Source: Shigella phage Sf13
Length of the DNA stretch: 64,000 nt
Strand: one strand, 5' to 3'
Sequence record: MF158040
A program made the translations under genes and the position numbers. The notes beneath the pieces are model-generated. The model was not told the origin of the DNA, did not search any database, and saw only the letters and a list, made by a program, of their open reading frames with translations. This document shows, piece by piece, positions 3,093 through 13,373 of the stretch (its first letter is position 1; each line of letters starts with the position of its first letter).

Positions 3093-4602
3093 GAGTAAAA
3101 TTTACTAAATTTATAATTTTTATAAAATTTGGGATTCACTCCGTTCATCTTGGGTCACCATGATATGTGATAAAATATCTATACCCTTCTAAACACCCTC
3201 TCTAAGCATCATCTCTATATAGTATTATATAGTATCTATATAGCCTCTTAGCCCCTAAATAGTGCTCTCTATATAGCCCTCTATAAAGCCTTCTAAGCCT
3301 ACCATTAATCAACCCTATACAATCACCTTCCTAACCTCTTCATAGCCCCTTAGAAGCCCCTATACTCATCTTAATCTCTAGGTAAACGATAGTACACTAT
3401 ATAGCAGAATCACTAGGTATTACTAAGCCTCTATATAGACTGTTATATAACACTAAACAGGTATTCCCTTCTAAGGCTTATCCTACAAGGTCTAACACGG
3501 TACTAACAAGGTCTCTTATAAGCCTGTTAATTCCTGTTTTATATAAGATAGTGTATAGATAGTTATTCAGTTCTATAAAATTTTTATAAAATAGACTAGG
3601 TAGTGTTTGTTTAGGAGTCTTTGGAGAATCTGAAAAATATCTACTTAGGGTGTATATCTGCTTGGTAGCCCTTAACAGCCCTGTAACATCCCCTTTGCAG
3701 TTTATTAAAATATCATTAACAATTTCTTAACAACTCTCTCAAGCTCTTAACATCTCTTCAGAGTTCTTAACAATCCCTTAACAGAACTAACAAGAGCTTA
3801 ACAAGTCTGTAACGTTGCTTACAAGAGTCTAACAAGTTGCTTATAAGTTGCTAAATAGTTAAATCTTAAGAGTTATTTTGTTAAGATAATTAACAAGGTG
3901 CTAACAAGTTCTAAACCTTTTTAACAGTCTCTTAACATGGTCACTATCTCTTGGTCTATAGTTCCCTATGTTTCTTAGTGATTCTCTATAAAGCCCTCTT
4001 AAAAGCTCTCTATAGCTCTGTATAGCCTCTTCTAAGCTTCTCCCTAGTAACTACACCCCAACTACCTGTATAGCTCTTTATAGGGCTTTCTAGGGGCTTA
4101 TACAGGTACTTCAAAGAGTCTAACAAGCTTTTAACATACCTCTAACAAGGATTTAACAAGGGGCTAACAAGTCTCTAATAAGCATAACTATGTAGCATTT
4201 GTTAAGATTTTGTTAAGAGAATGTAAAGGGGGCTAACTTTTACGTTACTTTTAAGGTTCTTTTACGTTACTTTGAAGACTCCATAACATACTTTAAAGCT
4301 ATTATCAAGCCCCTTTGTAACCATTCACAAGATTCTATCCAGCTTATAAGCTTATACCCTTATAAGATTCTTTTAAGGCTCTAGAAAGCTCTATAAAGGG
4401 CTTTTAAGAGTAGGTTAATATGATTGCTTAAGATGAGATGATAAGCCCGTATAGAGCGTTATAGAGCGTTTTAGGGATTGCCCTTCCCTTTCGGGTTATG
4501 GGCTTATATTTAAGTTGATTTGATAAGAGGATATAGAGTAAGCTATAGAGTTATTATTCTAAATGTATGGGATAGATTCTAGGAAGGTTTCTTTATAGAC
4601 GT
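3093..4602. other. 1.5 kb ORF-free region with short-motif arrays
   Basis: No ORF of 60 aa or more on either strand; + strand visibly G-poor; about 10 copies of (C/T)TAACAAG between 3490 and 4180; many CTATA(A/T)AG(C) motifs; tandem GTTATAGAGCG at about 4455-4480; bounded by inward-facing terminators. Confidence 0.5.
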
Positions 4603-11665: not shown

Positions 11666-11872
11666 TTAAACGTTGTAATAATAAATTGCTGTATGCCTTG
11701 TAAACTGTCTTGTATGAGTTGTCAAGTAACAATCTGAACTGATTGACGTATCAACATATTCATCAAAATCCTTTTCTGAGATACGTTGCCAAACATCACA
11801 AATTAGCATATAGAAACGACGTTTATTTGTTTTGTTGTTGTCAACAATCATTAACTCACGTTGATATAACAT
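11666..11872 (-). CDS. hypothetical protein
   Basis: 68 aa ORF; ATG start directly after cassette at 11873. Confidence 0.4.
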   Translation of the reverse strand: MLYQRELMIVDNNKTNKRRFYMLICDVWQRISEKDFDEYVDTSISSDCYLTTHTRQFTRHTAIYYYNV

Positions 11873-11940
11873 TTTAGATTCTCCAGTTTAGGATTGTTGG
11901 GATGTTTCCCGTTGATGCAAATACTATAAGACTGGATTTA
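11873..11940 (-). promoter_or_regulatory. cassette type B (first of array)
   Basis: GGGA-TGTT-TCCC hairpin plus CTGGAGAATCTAAA RBS; a possible promoter TTGACT-N17-TAGTAT lies just upstream (about 11922-11955). Confidence 0.4.
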
Positions 11941-12124
11941 TGAAGTCAACAAAATTTTTAAAAATATTTTCGATGCTTCGTGAATAGAACGCACGTATGC
12001 GGATACACTAAAACAGGAATTTAGTCAAGAATTATTTTTGAGTTCTCTACAAATTTTTCTCTTGACTTTTGGGAGGAAGGGGATTAAGAGGGGATGGTGG
12101 GGCTGGTTTCCTACAGCTACCTAC

Positions 12125-12320
12125 CTGCACAATTTGAAAATGAATTTTCCCTTTGGAGTCCAACTGCATCTGCACAGATTGAAAATGAAAAAGCTCTTTG
12201 GAGTCTAAACCTGCACAAATTTGAAATGAATTTTCCCTTTGGAGTTCAGCTAAAGAAATCTGTCCAGAGTTCTATGCAACTATACCTGCACAAATTTAAA
12301 ATGAAAAAGCCCTCCTTACC
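12125..12320. repeat. four direct repeats of about 36-40 bp
   Basis: CTGCACA(A/G)ATT(T)GAAAATGAA-(TTTTCC|AAAAGC)-CTTTGGAGT starting near 12125, 12170, 12211 and 12286; the last merges into the terminator hairpin. Confidence 0.55.
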
Positions 12321-12352
12321 TGAGATTTTTAAACTCAAACTTTGGAGGGCTT
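12304..12352 (-). terminator. putative terminator (long loop)
   Basis: AGCCCTCC ... GGAGGGCT inverted repeat with a T-run after it on the minus strand, downstream of the macrodomain gene stop. Confidence 0.35.
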
Positions 12353-12376
12353 GTCTATGTCTAGCTAGGTGACTTA

Positions 12377-13171
12377 TTAGTTACGTGCTTCAACATAGCT
12401 TACGTTTTCATGTGTGATATAATCTTCTGCAAACTCTTCTGTAGTAGCATTGATATATACACTTGCATCATCGCCAAACGTTACCGCTCTGTGGTGGTGG
12501 CCTTGTAACGGGTGGGTAACTTGAGCGTTACTTCGATTGTACTTATCAACCGGAGGGTAACTGGTGTGTACCTTGCCATTACGCTTCACCTTGAGGGTAA
12601 CTTTATCCTTGCCTACCACAGCAACACCATCAAAGTATTGAGGCTCACTGAAGTTCTCCCAACCAGTAACAGGACTAGTCAACTGACTGTACATCTTATC
12701 TTCATAGACATACATATATACGTCAACATCTTTCATGGTCTGATTAATAATGGACAGCACAGCCATACTATCAAGACCACCAATCCCTGCACCAATCATA
12801 GGGAGTCCAACCTTCTTAAGCTGGTTTACTTTACAGTAGTTGTTAAGACGCTGTAAAGCTGCTTCTAAGGCATTGTATCGTGCATTTTTTCCAGTGATAA
12901 CCTGAGTATAAAGGTTAGCAATTCGACCCTGCTTCAAACGTGCTACAGAGATGTTACCAAGCATTAGATTCTTAGGGTTATGGTTTTCACCACCTACTGT
13001 AGCATAAACTTCAGCGTCAGTTTCATAAGCTTTTGGGTAGCGTTTAGCAATTGTTGCTGCGATACCTGCACCCATCAAGTTCATGCAGTTACAACCGTGA
13101 CCAATGATATCAAACTTCTTACCATCAAAGTCTTTAAAGATATCACCTTTAATAATTTTTACGATACCCAT
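12377..13171 (-). CDS. macrodomain protein (TARG1/DarG-like ADP-ribosyl hydrolase fold) with C-terminal extension
   Basis: KGDIF...DIIGHGCNCMNLMGAGIAATIAKRYP and LPMIGAGIGGLD resemble the TARG1-type macrodomain (GDLF...HCISEDCRMGAGIA...PRIGCGLD); about 110 aa unrecognised C-terminal region with a GHHH motif. ORF track start is 13228; ATG at 13171 (MGIVKIIKGD...) avoids a 56 nt overlap with the upstream gene. Start uncertain. Confidence 0.55.
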   Translation of the reverse strand: MGIVKIIKGDIFKDFDGKKFDIIGHGCNCMNLMGAGIAATIAKRYPKAYETDAEVYATVGGENHNPKNLMLGNISVARLKQGRIANLYTQVITGKNARYNALEAALQRLNNYCKVNQLKKVGLPMIGAGIGGLDSMAVLSIINQTMKDVDVYMYVYEDKMYSQLTSPVTGWENFSEPQYFDGVAVVGKDKVTLKVKRNGKVHTSYPPVDKYNRSNAQVTHPLQGHHHRAVTFGDDASVYINATTEEFAEDYITHENVSYVEARN

Positions 13172-13172
13172 A

Positions 13173-13373
13173 TTAGTAATGCTCCCAACGTTCGTTATCT
13201 TCAGATGGTTTAACTCGGTTACCTTCATGGTCTACCCATAAAGCACCGCAACCTTCACAGATTACTGGCATTGCTGAACCAGCTTCAAACTCTGCCTTTG
13301 TAAAGAGACCTTTTAAGTCTCCTGTATCTTTTCCAAACATCTCAACAGAACACTTAGTGCAGAAATCAGCCAT
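13173..13373 (-). CDS. zinc-ribbon protein
   Basis: 66 aa ORF with CTKC ... CEGC cysteine pairs; ATG start. Confidence 0.45.
   Translation of the reverse strand: MADFCTKCSVEMFGKDTGDLKGLFTKAEFEAGSAMPVICEGCGALWVDHEGNRVKPSEDNERWEHY

What the first reader, a model, noticed from the sequence alone, without database searches (positions are those of the whole stretch)
12125..12320. Four direct 36-40 bp repeats in a 500 bp intergenic gap
CTGCACA(A/G)ATT(T)GAAAATGAA followed by alternately TTTTCCCTTTGGAGT or AAAAGCTCTTTGGAGT, at about 12125, 12170, 12211 and 12286, the last merging into the terminator hairpin AGCCCTCC...GGAGGGCT. The spacing is irregular and the units are not CRISPR-like. They sit between the macrodomain gene and the small-gene array, upstream of the array's first cassette. 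They could be operator sites, a small-RNA locus, or decayed copies of a terminator module. The 92 aa + strand ORF here is a repeat artefact.
Basis: seen in the sequence. Interest (0 to 1): 0.5.

Follow-up and report, generated by a model that had tools for sequence, protein, structure and literature searches.

The report
Conserved four-repeat non-coding array in Felix-O1-like phages
The four repeats are real, occur only at this one spot in the phage genome, and are kept in every Felix-O1-like phage examined (including distant Erwinia phages), so they form an undescribed functional non-coding element, most likely the body of an antisense non-coding RNA or a set of protein-binding DNA sites, whose exact job still needs an experiment.

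Summary
Four direct repeats start at 12125, 12170, 12211 and 12286. They share an 18-nt core, TGCAC-N7-AAATGA, which occurs nowhere else in the 64-kb window or in the complete 90-kb genome of the close relative Sf18.

The window is a Mooglevirus (Ounavirinae, Felix-O1-like). The 504-bp gap is conserved in 254 phage records. The array is at least as conserved as the adjacent macro-domain gene. Erwinia phages, whose macro protein is only 37% identical, keep four units with the same core. Decay is therefore excluded. No reading frame is conserved, so the ORFs annotated over the array are artefacts.

The anatomy, read along the gene-sense strand, is: macro gene, intrinsic terminator, units, G-rich tract, a back-to-back promoter pair, then the terminal small-gene array. 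One promoter of the pair points into the repeats, antisense to all neighbouring genes. It is near-consensus in the Erwinia phages.

- **Best reading (about 0.35):** a non-coding RNA that carries four copies of an A-rich motif and acts as a multivalent decoy. Its architecture resembles a type III (ToxI-like) antitoxin array without a toxin.
- **Membership in ToxI:** tested and not met.
- **Rivals:** iteron-like DNA sites or a transcription-activated origin; operator or injection-stop sites.
- **Not this:** a genome terminus, a CRISPR array or any Rfam family.

The parts
12123..12165 (+). Repeat unit 1. Core TGCACAATTTGAAAATGA at 12126-12143; tail ATTTTCCCTTTGGAGT (T-type).
12168..12210 (+). Repeat unit 2. 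Core TGCACAGATTGAAAATGA at 12171-12188; tail AAAAGCTCTTTGGAGT (A-type).
12209..12251 (+). Repeat unit 3. Core TGCACAAATTTGAAATGA at 12212-12229; T-type tail.
12258..12283 (+). Decayed fifth unit (ATCTGTCCAGAGTTCTATGCAA...). It matches about 14 of 21 positions of unit 2 and explains the 75-bp gap between units 3 and 4.
   Evidence: read directly; the Erwinia phages have four evenly spaced units and no such gap
12284..12326 (+). Repeat unit 4. Core TGCACAAATTTAAAATGA at 12287-12304. Its A-run is the complement of the U-tract of the macro gene's terminator.
12298..12351 (-). Intrinsic terminator of the macro-domain gene: hairpin arms 12344-12351 and 12308-12315, then TTTTTCATTTT on the - strand. 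In the Felix-like relatives (16-19 of 24 sequences) the stem keeps G.U pairs that work only in - strand RNA; in this window the pairs at those stem positions are C-G, so the stem pairs on both strands.
12071..12102 (+). G-rich tract (GGGAGGAAGGGGATTAAGAGGGGATGGTGGGG) that fits a G-quadruplex pattern. In dune/VpaE1-type relatives the + strand tract is absent and a related G-rich motif sits on the - strand instead.
12062..12090 (+). Antisense promoter P(+): TTGACT (12062-12067, invariant in all 25 enteric-phage sequences), 17-nt spacer, TAAGAG (12085-12090, a weak -10). It points into the repeats. Its counterparts are TTGACG/C-N18-TATACT in Erwinia phages and TTGACT-N14-TGG-TAGCCT (extended -10) in dune-like phages.
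   Evidence: inference for this window
12000..12028 (-). Sense promoter P2(-): TTGACT (12028-12023), 17-nt spacer, TATCCG (12005-12000). It lies back-to-back with P(+), with 33 bp of invariant A/T-rich DNA between the two -35 hexamers.
   Evidence: inference
11921..11949 (-). Sense promoter P1(-): TTGACT-17-TAGTAT. It drives the first small gene (11872-11666) and the small-gene array.

Best explanation
The repeats form the body of a small non-coding transcription unit that is antisense to all neighbouring genes.

A sigma-70 promoter, P(+), has its -35 hexamer at 12062-12067. It sits back-to-back with the early promoters of the small-gene array and fires rightwards. Its transcript runs through the G-rich leader and the four units, up to or through the hairpin at 12308-12351. 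That gives an RNA of roughly 250-330 nt carrying four copies of the same 18-nt motif, UGCAC-N7-AAAUGA, with its invariant A-rich AAAU block.

The proposed function is a multivalent decoy or sponge for one sequence-specific RNA-binding protein or endoribonuclease. The closest architectural model is a type III (ToxI-like) antitoxin array that has no toxin gene of its own.

**Shown:** the repeats; their uniqueness in the genome; their subfamily-wide conservation and fixed orientation; the absence of a conserved ORF; and the promoter motifs.

**Inferred:** that P(+) is active in this phage; that the RNA rather than the DNA is the functional form; and what the partner is.
For: 1. **The element is real and under selection.**
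   - The core motif occurs 4 times against 0.1 expected.
   - It is found only at this locus in the complete Sf18 genome.
   - The 460-bp gap is conserved in 254 Ounavirinae records.
   - TGCAC and AAAT are invariant in 67 distinct unit sequences.
   - Nucleotide identity between the window and wV8 is 79.6% for the units against 69.5% for the macro CDS.

2. **A promoter points into the units.**
   - In Erwinia phages it reads TTGACG-18-TATACT, a 10/12 match. It is conserved in three Kolesnikvirus genomes while the spacer varies.
   - In all 25 enteric-phage sequences TTGACT and the A/T-rich upstream block are invariant.
   - Dune-like phages carry an extended -10.
   - A strong antisense promoter is unlikely to be kept unless transcription of what lies downstream matters. 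Only the leader, the units and the hairpin lie downstream before the antisense of the macro gene begins.

3. **All units keep the same orientation relative to P(+) in every genus**.

4. **Spacing between units has no conserved helical phase.** Values are 37, 39, 41, 45 and 73-77 bp, and they differ between genera. This is easy to accept for motifs on an RNA and awkward for cooperative DNA binding.

5. **The architecture matches type III antitoxin arrays.**
   - The layout is promoter, then 37-45-nt direct repeats each with an A-rich AAAU/GAAAU block, then a hairpin.
   - Published ranges for such arrays are 31-62 nt and 1.9-5.6 copies (PMC3401426). ToxN enzymes cut at AA|AU or GAA|AU (PMC8860590).
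   - tenpI repeats are reported to be non-identical, differing by up to 35% (PMC12283969).
   - A two-unit pattern built from the phage core retrieved a genuine toxIN locus in an Acetatifactor MAG. It has a promoter, two 37-nt repeats, a terminator and a ToxN gene (PF13958, E = 2.7e-47).
   - A phage-encoded pseudo-ToxI RNA is a documented way to escape abortive infection (PMC3475682).
Against: - The -10 of P(+) in this window and in Felix O1 is poor (TAAGAG, with no T at -7). The promoter scan does not call it.
- There is no proper terminator for the + strand RNA. The U-tract lies on the - strand. In Felix-like phages three stem positions are G.U on the - strand, which makes them A.C mismatches on the + strand.
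- No conserved secondary structure or covariation was found in the array on either strand.
- The tail after the core alternates between AAAA and TTTT. These are equivalent as DNA A-tracts but not as RNA.
- The G-rich element next to unit 1 appears in the opposite orientation in dune-like phages. That suggests at least part of the region works as DNA.
- **Against the ToxI version specifically:**
  - an HMM built from six enterobacterial ToxI repeats does not hit the units;
  - there is no Rfam match;
  - there is no blastn match in 72,556 plasmids or 5,426 E. coli genomes;
  - Sf18 has no ToxN-like ORF.
- No transcriptome data for any Ounavirinae phage was found.
Confidence: 0.35

Rival explanations
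1. The units are iteron-like DNA sites within a transcription-activated replication origin. Each core is recognised as double-stranded DNA by a phage or host initiator, or serves as a primase entry site. Transcription from the flanking sigma-70 promoters opens the A/T-rich array or primes synthesis, as in T7's primary origin and T4 oriE (both recalled from memory).
For: - The array is a genome-unique set of direct repeats in an A/T-rich intergenic region flanked by promoters.
- The core has two invariant blocks about one helical turn apart.
- AAAA and TTTT tails are interchangeable, which fits read-out of DNA shape.
- The G-rich element works in either orientation.
- The phage encodes a T7-gp4-type primase/helicase and a PolA-type polymerase, and no initiator is annotated in Sf18. 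Such replisomes are known to use transcription-dependent origins (general knowledge).
Against: - Unit spacing (37-77 bp) is not in helical phase and is unlike the roughly 22-bp spacing of classical iterons.
- No Rep-type initiator was identified.
- Cumulative GC skew shows no inflection here; it simply follows the direction of transcription.
- A transcription-primed origin would not need four copies of an invariant 18-nt core.
Confidence: 0.25
2. The units are DNA sites for a regulator or a host factor, acting as operators, an insulator or an injection-stop signal. The array marks the inner boundary of the terminal early 'small-gene' segment. It could bind a repressor that shuts off the early promoters, block read-through, or hold the entering DNA, by analogy with the DnaA-box-rich iss region proposed for T5.
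For: - The locus lies 6.5 kb (7.3% of the genome) from the right terminal repeat in Pr103Blw. In the window it lies about 8.5 kb from the homologue of that repeat.
- T5's conserved untranslated repeat region lies at 7.9% of the genome and carries DnaA boxes (bioRxiv 10.1101/866236).
- All four units in the Erwinia phages are within 1 mismatch of the DnaA box TTWTNCACA.
- The array lies directly upstream of P2/P1.
Against: - The units in the window have 2-3 mismatches to the DnaA box.
- The conservation profile does not fit a DnaA box. The G at the N position is invariant, while the TTA part is not conserved.
- Given a fixed TGCACA, a match within 1 mismatch has a chance probability of about 0.25 (own calculation).
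- The units lie at least 95 bp from the sense promoters and are not palindromic.
- Two-step injection has never been reported for these phages (none was found in the searches).
- This reading gives no role to the conserved antisense promoter.
Confidence: 0.15
3. The units are non-functional remnants of tandem duplications of the terminator's 3' half (U-tract plus downstream sequence).
For: - Unit 4 is physically fused to the terminator's U-tract.
- On the - strand, unit 2 reads as a small hairpin followed by GCTTTTTCATTTTC.
- One decayed unit does exist (12258-12283).
Against: - The core is invariant across units and across genera whose flanking protein is only 37% identical.
- Spacing is conserved within each genus.
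- The terminator scan finds nothing at units 1-3.
- The conserved GTGCA block lying 8 nt beyond the U-tract is left unexplained.
Confidence: 0.05
4. The array encodes a small protein, as in the + strand ORFs annotated as Mordin gp014, Silverhawkium gp124, EcSzw1_16 and Felix O1 ORF31/34, or the - strand wV8 gp13.
For: - Long open frames overlap the array in most genomes (67-138 codons on the + strand).
- Every core contains an ATG.
Against: - The relative frames of the four ATGs differ by lineage: [1,1,0,0], [1,1,1,2], [1,2,2,0] and [0,0,1,2]. The longest open stretch changes position, frame and length.
- Indels of 2 and 4 nt separate the genera.
- The two TGA triplets in each core share one frame. 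Two frames therefore stay open by construction.
- No Shine-Dalgarno sequence precedes the ATGs.
Confidence: 0.02

Closest known systems
Type III antitoxin RNA arrays (ToxI / CptI / TenpI) and the phage PhiTE pseudo-ToxI locus
   Same: - The layout is a promoter, then tandem direct repeats of 37-45 nt, then a hairpin.
- Each unit carries a conserved A-rich AAAU/GAAAU block of the kind ToxN-type RNases cut.
- The units are non-identical, as reported for tenpI.
- The array is phage-borne, intergenic and non-coding, like pseudo-ToxI.
- The core resembles the 3' part of enterobacterial ToxI (UGCR, 6-8 nt, GAAA|AU).
   Different: - No toxin gene lies downstream or anywhere in the genome.
- The hairpin's U-tract belongs to the opposite strand.
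- There is no detectable sequence homology to enterobacterial ToxI, and no demonstrable pseudoknot.
- A 73-77-bp gap holding a decayed unit interrupts the array.
- It is conserved over a whole phage subfamily rather than arising as an escape mutation.
Iteron arrays and transcription-activated phage origins (plasmid iterons; T4 oriE; T7 primary origin - from memory)
   Same: - Genome-unique direct repeats in an A/T-rich intergenic region.
- Promoters read into that region.
- The phage has a T7-gp4-like replisome.
   Different: - Spacing is 37-77 bp and out of helical phase.
- No initiator gene was identified.
- There is no experimental or skew evidence for an origin here.
T5 injection-stop (iss) untranslated repeat region with DnaA boxes (Davison, bioRxiv 10.1101/866236)
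   Same: - A conserved untranslated repeat region lies 7-9% from a genome end.
- It marks the inner border of a block of poorly conserved small early genes.
- TGCACA equals the 3' two-thirds of a DnaA box, and the Erwinia-phage units match 8 of 9 positions.
   Different: - T5 has paired DnaA boxes inside large inverted repeats. Here there are four direct repeats, and the enteric members match the DnaA box poorly.
- The terminal repeat here is only about 0.6 kb, and it lies about 6.5-8.5 kb beyond the array, so the array is outside it.
- Two-step injection is not known for these phages.
Multi-motif protein-sponge RNAs (CsrB/RsmZ, CrcZ - from memory)
   Same: One non-coding RNA carries several copies of a short single-stranded motif, which suggests titration of a binding protein.
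   Different: - The motif is neither GGA-in-loop nor an ANAANAA/ARN repeat.
- The motif is not presented in conserved hairpins.
- There is no Rfam match.

Membership tests
Type III toxin-antitoxin antitoxin array (ToxI/CptI/TenpI) | Tandem direct nucleotide repeats of about 31-62 nt in 1.9-5.6 copies (PMC3401426) | tested here: met
   There are four units at 45/41/75-nt spacing (39/37/37 in Erwinia phages). Caveat: the units are 63-88% identical, and a decayed unit interrupts the array.
Type III toxin-antitoxin antitoxin array (ToxI/CptI/TenpI) | Promoter upstream of the repeats, in the same orientation | tested here: inconclusive
   The promoter is near-consensus in Erwinia phages (10/12) and conserved there. 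In the window the -35 is good but the -10 (TAAGAG) is weak, and the scan does not call it.
Type III toxin-antitoxin antitoxin array (ToxI/CptI/TenpI) | Terminator after the repeats, followed by a toxin ORF (ToxN/CptN/TenpN) on the same strand | tested here: not met
   The hairpin's U-tract is on the opposite strand, and in the Felix-like relatives (though not in this window) its G.U pairs also work only on that strand. Downstream on the + strand lies only the antisense of the macro gene. tblastn of ToxN/AbiQ against the whole Sf18 genome finds nothing (best E = 0.83).
Type III toxin-antitoxin antitoxin array (ToxI/CptI/TenpI) | Sequence or structure relationship to a known antitoxin RNA (pseudoknot core) | tested here: not met
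   An HMM of six enterobacterial ToxI repeats does not hit the units at E < 100. Rfam gives nothing. No conserved stems were found. TenpI and CptI could not be tested because no sequences were available.
Type III toxin-antitoxin antitoxin array (ToxI/CptI/TenpI) | A-rich toxin cleavage motif recurring once per unit (AA|AU, GAA|AU; PMC8860590) | tested here: met
   AAAT is invariant in all 67 distinct unit sequences, and GAAAAT or GAAAT is present in most. This is a weak criterion in A/T-rich DNA.
Iteron-type replication origin | Several direct repeats of one initiator-binding site at regular, helically phased spacing | tested here: not met
   Direct repeats are present, but the spacing is 37-77 bp, varies between genera and is not phased.
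Iteron-type replication origin | Adjacent A/T-rich unwinding region and an encoded initiator; origin mapped by skew or experiment | tested here: inconclusive
   The region is A/T-rich. GC skew shows no inflection. No initiator is annotated in Sf18. The primase/helicase is T7-gp4-like on reading its sequence.
DnaA-box cluster (oriC-like / T5 iss-like) | 9-mers matching TTWTNCACA with at most 1 mismatch | tested here: not met
   Window units have 3, 2, 3 and 3 mismatches. Erwinia-phage units have 1 each. The conservation profile disagrees with the box.
CRISPR array / solitary CRISPR-repeat RNA | Near-identical 28-37-nt repeats separated by unique spacers of similar length | tested here: not met
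   The units abut or overlap (12165/12168, 12210/12209) and are 63-88% identical. Rfam finds no CRISPR direct-repeat family.
Intrinsic (Rho-independent) terminator modules | G+C-rich hairpin immediately followed by a U-tract | tested here: not met
   This holds only for unit 4 plus the hairpin, on the - strand (relatives). The scan finds none at units 1-3.
Genome terminus / terminal repeat / pac site | Coincides with the physical end or the direct terminal repeat | tested here: not met
   The PhageTerm-defined 581-bp terminal repeat of Pr103Blw (PMC8303462) maps to window positions about 3650-4233. That is about 8 kb away from the repeats.

The most novel reading that the evidence does not exclude
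The array is an orphan, type III-antitoxin-like RNA kept by the whole Ounavirinae subfamily as a standing counter-defence.

The antisense transcript would present four copies of UGCAC-N7-AAA|AUGA. These would be bound, and perhaps cut, by ToxN/TenpN-type abortive-infection endoribonucleases or by another host RNase. That would titrate the enzyme when host transcription is shut off.

If true, this would be the first naturally fixed, family-wide RNA antitoxin mimic in lytic phages. The known case, PhiTE pseudo-ToxI, is a laboratory escape expansion.
Probability: 0.12. Interest if true: 0.85.

Novelty: new variant of a known kind. Interest (0 to 1): 0.5.

Why it matters
Felix O1 and its relatives are classic typing phages and widely used biocontrol and therapy phages. 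Even so, their replication origin, early transcription control and non-coding RNAs are essentially unmapped.

This is a subfamily-wide, genome-unique non-coding element. It is at least as conserved as the protein-coding gene next to it, and it lies at the border of the terminal host-takeover gene block. GenBank records either leave it blank or cover it with spurious ORFs.

Whichever reading is right, it gives a precise 250-bp target for experiments:
- an antisense decoy RNA;
- a replication origin;
- an entry or regulatory signal.

If the decoy reading holds, it would add an RNA-based anti-defence mechanism that is conserved in nature.

Tried and rejected
- **Genome terminus.** Three GenBank assemblies break or degrade at the G-rich tract. 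However, the PhageTerm-defined terminal repeat maps 8 kb away, and the Andreotti end is a snap-back chimera. The breaks are probably sequencing trouble on G-runs.
- **Rfam.** Nothing relevant on either strand at E <= 5.
- **Thermodynamic and comparative RNA structure.** Folding z-scores were -0.9 and -1.5. No covarying helices were found apart from the - strand terminator.
- **Host counterparts.** blastn of the array against 72,556 plasmids returned only chance hits. Against 5,426 E. coli genomes it returned none.
- **ToxI homology.** Six enterobacterial toxIN loci were fetched, their repeats extracted and an HMM built. It does not hit the units.
- **Pattern scans.**
  - A first IMG/VR scan with a long pattern from the promoter block found nothing.
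  - The genome-collection scan gave 9 hits. One was a true toxIN locus and the rest were unrelated hairpin or tandem repeats.
  - The other IMG/VR hits were coding repeats in tail-fibre-like genes, plus one 2-copy repeat near terminase genes.
- **DnaA boxes.** They fit only the Erwinia phages, and the conservation profile disagrees.
- **Other candidate sites, checked by eye only.** Matches to sigma-54, sigma-32, the T4 MotA box, CRP, Fur, IHF, ArgR, PurR and boxA all failed on spacing or on key positions.
- **GC skew.** Uninformative, because it tracks transcription direction.
- **Literature.** The Felix O1 genome paper, the PhageMaP Bas63 study and searches for Ounavirinae transcriptomes or sRNAs gave no description of this element.
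- **TenpI and CptI.** Sequences could not be obtained because no supplements are held.
Full report
**1. The observation**

The repeat finder returns one family of four direct copies at 12123-12165, 12168-12210, 12209-12251 and 12284-12326, with spacing 45/41/75. The gapped motif CTGCAC-N4-9-AAATGA matches at 12125, 12170, 12211 and 12286 and nowhere else in 64 kb. The chance expectation is 0.10, and none of 100 shuffles reached 4.

All genes in the neighbourhood lie on the - strand. They are the Macro-domain gene at 12377-13228 (PF01661) and the first small gene at 11666-11872. The intergenic gap is therefore 11873-12376.

Unit 4 runs into the hairpin AGCCCTCC (12308-12315) / GGAGGGCT (12344-12351).

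**2. What phage this is, and how widespread the element is**

The window is a Mooglevirus (Ounavirinae, the Felix-O1-like myoviruses). It is 97-98% identical to Shigella phages Sf15 and Sf18.

The 504-bp gap alone finds 254 phage records. In 234 of them one match covers at least 80% of the gap, mostly at 70-75% identity. They include Felix O1, wV8 and Suspvirus.

Alignments of 13 and then 26 non-identical sequences show all four units in every genome. Pooling 118 units from 30 loci gives 67 distinct sequences. In these, TGCAC and AAAT are invariant and always 7 nt apart. The core is TGCAC-R-N-W-T-Y-K-R-AAAT-G-A, followed by AAAA or TTTT and then S-C.

Spacing is fixed within each genus:
- Mooglevirus: 45/41/75
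- Felixounavirus: 45/39/73
- Erwinia phages: 39/37/37
- One lineage (L058, L078): three units at 45/75

The long gap between units 3 and 4 holds a decayed fifth unit.

Erwinia phage phiEa21-4 and two relatives (Kolesnikvirus) have the same roughly 460-bp gap after their macro gene, with four units. Their macro protein is only 37% identical to the one in the window. Between the window and wV8, the units are 79.6% identical at the nucleotide level, against 69.5% for the macro CDS.

The core occurs only at this locus in the complete 90,270-bp Sf18 genome and in 50 kb of phiEa21-4.

The element is therefore real, unique in the genome and under purifying selection. The 'decayed remnant' reading is excluded.

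**3. Not coding**

Long open frames cross the array in most genomes, and several are annotated as genes. These include Mordin gp014, Silverhawkium gp124, EcSzw1_16, Felix O1 ORF31-34 and wV8 gp13.

However, the relative frames of the four core ATGs differ between lineages. The longest open stretch changes frame, position and length, and 2- and 4-nt indels separate the genera. The two TGA triplets in each core share one frame, which leaves two frames open by construction.

**4. Anatomy of the gap** (coordinates run leftwards, following the - strand genes)

- The macro gene ends at 12377.
- Its intrinsic terminator follows: the hairpin at 12351-12308, then TTTTTCATTTT. In 16-19 of 24 aligned genomes, two stem positions are U.G. 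These pair only in - strand RNA, and the scan calls the terminator on that strand in relatives. In this window the pairs at those stem positions are C-G, so its stem pairs on either strand and only the U-tract marks the strand.
- The complement of that U-tract is the A-run of unit 4.
- Next come the decayed unit and units 3, 2 and 1.
- A G-rich tract follows at 12102-12071.
- Then comes a back-to-back promoter pair:
  - TTGACT at 12062-12067 on the + strand, with a 17-nt spacer and TAAGAG;
  - TTGACT at 12028-12023 on the - strand, with a 17-nt spacer and TATCCG.
  - The 33 bp of A/T-rich DNA between the two -35 hexamers is invariant.
- A further sense promoter, TTGACT-17-TAGTAT at 11949-11921, precedes the first small gene.

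The + strand promoter is antisense to every gene for tens of kilobases. In the Erwinia phages it is near-consensus (TTGACG-18-TATACT, 10/12), and it is conserved in three genomes while the spacer varies. Dune/VpaE1-type phages replace the G-rich tract with TTGACT-N14-TGG-TAGCCT, which is an extended -10. In Felix O1 and in this window the -10 is weak.

I infer that rightward transcription into the units is a conserved feature. That it happens in this particular phage is not shown.

**5. What it is not**

- **Not a genome end.** Assemblies Andreotti and LMP34 break in the G-rich tract, and KhF1 has N-rich sequence there. However, Pr103Blw has a PhageTerm-defined 581-bp direct terminal repeat (PMC8303462), and its homologue lies at window positions about 3650-4233. 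The array therefore sits 6.5-8.5 kb (7-9% of the genome) inside the end. The variable small-gene array fills the space between.
- **Not an Rfam family**.
- **Not a CRISPR array.**
- **No conserved RNA secondary structure on either strand**, apart from the terminator.
- **No counterpart in plasmids or in 5,426 E. coli genomes** at blastn sensitivity.

**6. The type III antitoxin lead**

[quoted passage not shown] It has a promoter, then 37-45-nt direct repeats each carrying an invariant A-rich AAAU block, then a hairpin. Several published facts fit:
- Repeats in such loci are 31-62 nt long and occur in 1.9-5.6 copies (PMC3401426).
- ToxN enzymes cut at AA|AU or GAA|AU (PMC8860590).
- tenpI repeats are non-identical (PMC12283969).
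- A phage-borne pseudo-ToxI that defeats ToxIN is documented (PMC3475682).

A scan of 185,579 species genomes for two tandem cores returned nine loci. One is a genuine, unannotated toxIN locus in an Acetatifactor MAG. It has TTGACA-17-TATACT, two 37-nt repeats containing TGCAC-N6-AAAATGA, a terminator and a ToxN gene (PF13958, E = 2.7e-47). The other eight are unrelated repeats.

I then fetched six enterobacterial toxIN loci. Their ToxI repeats share AGGTGA..GCTACC..AAGTGCR-N5-7-GAAA|AU. The phage core resembles only the last part of this (UGCR, spacer, GAAA|AU). An HMM built from these repeats does not find the phage units. The phage has no ToxN-like ORF. The hairpin is built for the other strand.

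Membership is therefore not established. What remains is an architectural analogy plus a weak motif resemblance. I put the specific 'orphan antitoxin-like decoy' reading at about 0.12.

**7. DNA-level alternatives**

Several features fit recognition as double-stranded DNA:
- The core has two invariant blocks about one helical turn apart.
- The tails are interchangeable A-tracts (AAAA or TTTT).
- The neighbouring G-rich element fits a G-quadruplex pattern on the + strand in 15 of 16 Felix/Moogle-type sequences. In dune-like phages a related motif, GGTGGGG(C/A)TG, appears on the - strand instead.

The phage has a T7-gp4-type primase/helicase, so a transcription-activated origin is plausible by analogy. 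Against this, the unit spacing is not helically phased, no initiator is known, and GC skew is uninformative.

TGCACA is the 3' part of a DnaA box. The Erwinia-phage units are all within one mismatch of TTWTNCACA. The enteric units have 2-4 mismatches, and the conservation profile does not fit the box. Given the fixed core, such a match has about a 0.25 chance probability (own calculation).

The position of the array recalls the T5 injection-stop region as analysed in silico by Davison (10.1101/866236). It lies 7-9% from the end and borders a block of small early genes. Nothing else ties the two together.

**8. Verdict**

This is a real, undescribed, subfamily-wide non-coding element. I commit to the following ranking:
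- Antisense non-coding RNA carrying four protein-binding or cleavage motifs: 0.35.
- Iteron-like, transcription-activated origin: 0.25.
- Operator, insulator or entry-stop DNA sites: 0.15.
- Non-functional remnants: 0.05.
- Coding: 0.02.
- The remainder is unassigned.

The discriminating experiments are simple: 5'-end RNA-seq, promoter mutants versus core mutants, marker-frequency mapping, and plating on toxIN/tenpIN hosts.

Noticed in passing
window 3110-4233: This region is about 75% identical (reverse orientation) to the PhageTerm-defined 581-bp direct terminal repeat of phage Pr103Blw and its flank. It is packed with short CTTGTTAA / CTGTTAAG-type repeats. The physical genome end probably lies here, and the small-gene array runs from the repeat locus towards it.
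   Followed up: partly
window 12071-12102 (+): This G-rich tract fits the G3+N1-7 x4 quadruplex pattern and overlaps the -10/+1 of the antisense promoter. It is present on the + strand in 15 of 16 Felix/Moogle/Susp-type sequences. In dune/VpaE1-type phages it is absent there, and GGTGGGG(C/A)TG sits on the - strand instead. This looks like an inversion or replacement and is unexplained.
   Followed up: partly
GenBank MN850610.1 (L015 1-40), MK482690.1 (L017 end), KT184313.1 (L013 1-130): Three independent 'complete' or partial assemblies break or turn into N-rich junk exactly at the G-rich tract. Andreotti starts with a 19-nt snap-back copy of downstream sequence. The likely cause is coverage or quality loss on G-runs, but a site-specific nick or break was not excluded.
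   Followed up: partly
window 12507-12614: Three direct 27-nt repeats (AACGGGTGGGTAACTTGAGCGTTACTT-like, 67-74% identity to the first copy) lie at 41/40-nt spacing inside the 3' part of the macro-domain gene. That part encodes the C-terminal extension beyond the Macro domain.
   Followed up: no
window 11873-12376 and GenBank records of relatives: ORFs annotated across the array have no conserved frame and are probably mis-annotations. They are Mordin gp014, Silverhawkium gp124, EcSzw1_16, Felix O1 ORF31-34, wV8 gp13 and LMP34 QBQ76133.
   Followed up: yes
L042 6583-7230 (CAJGCP010000022.1, Acetatifactor MAG): A complete type III toxIN locus was found by the motif scan. It has TTGACA-17-TATACT, two 37-nt repeats (GGTGATGCACAGCCCTAAAATGAGCGAGTGAATAGTG), a terminator and a 159-aa ToxN (PF13958, E = 2.7e-47).
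   Followed up: yes
L041 9325-9390 (Erwinia phage phiEa21-4): Within the Erwinia-phage array, the TTGCCA of one unit and the TAAAAT/GAAAAT of the next unit form sigma-70-like promoters (10/12 and 9/12, 17-nt spacers) on the antisense strand. The wider spacing in enteric phages destroys this arrangement.
   Followed up: partly
L060 6254-6321 (IMG/VR UViG_3300018080_002802): An unrelated phage contig has two 50-nt direct repeats with the same TGCAC-N7-AAATGA core followed by a T-rich tail. They lie in the intergenic region upstream of its small and large terminase genes. This may be coincidence or a pac-type site.
   Followed up: no
window 11873-11960 and repeated upstream of other small genes: The small-gene array is built from repeated cassettes: a promoter (TTGACT-17-TAGTAT), a short hairpin, a conserved CCTAAACTGGAGAATCTAAAATG translation start, then the gene. 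The wV8 record annotates direct repeats (DR_1, DR_6, DR_7, DR_9) and the Mordin record 14-nt repeat regions in front of its small genes, which may correspond to these cassettes. Such cassettes would explain the multiple BLAST 'places' per genome.
   Followed up: no
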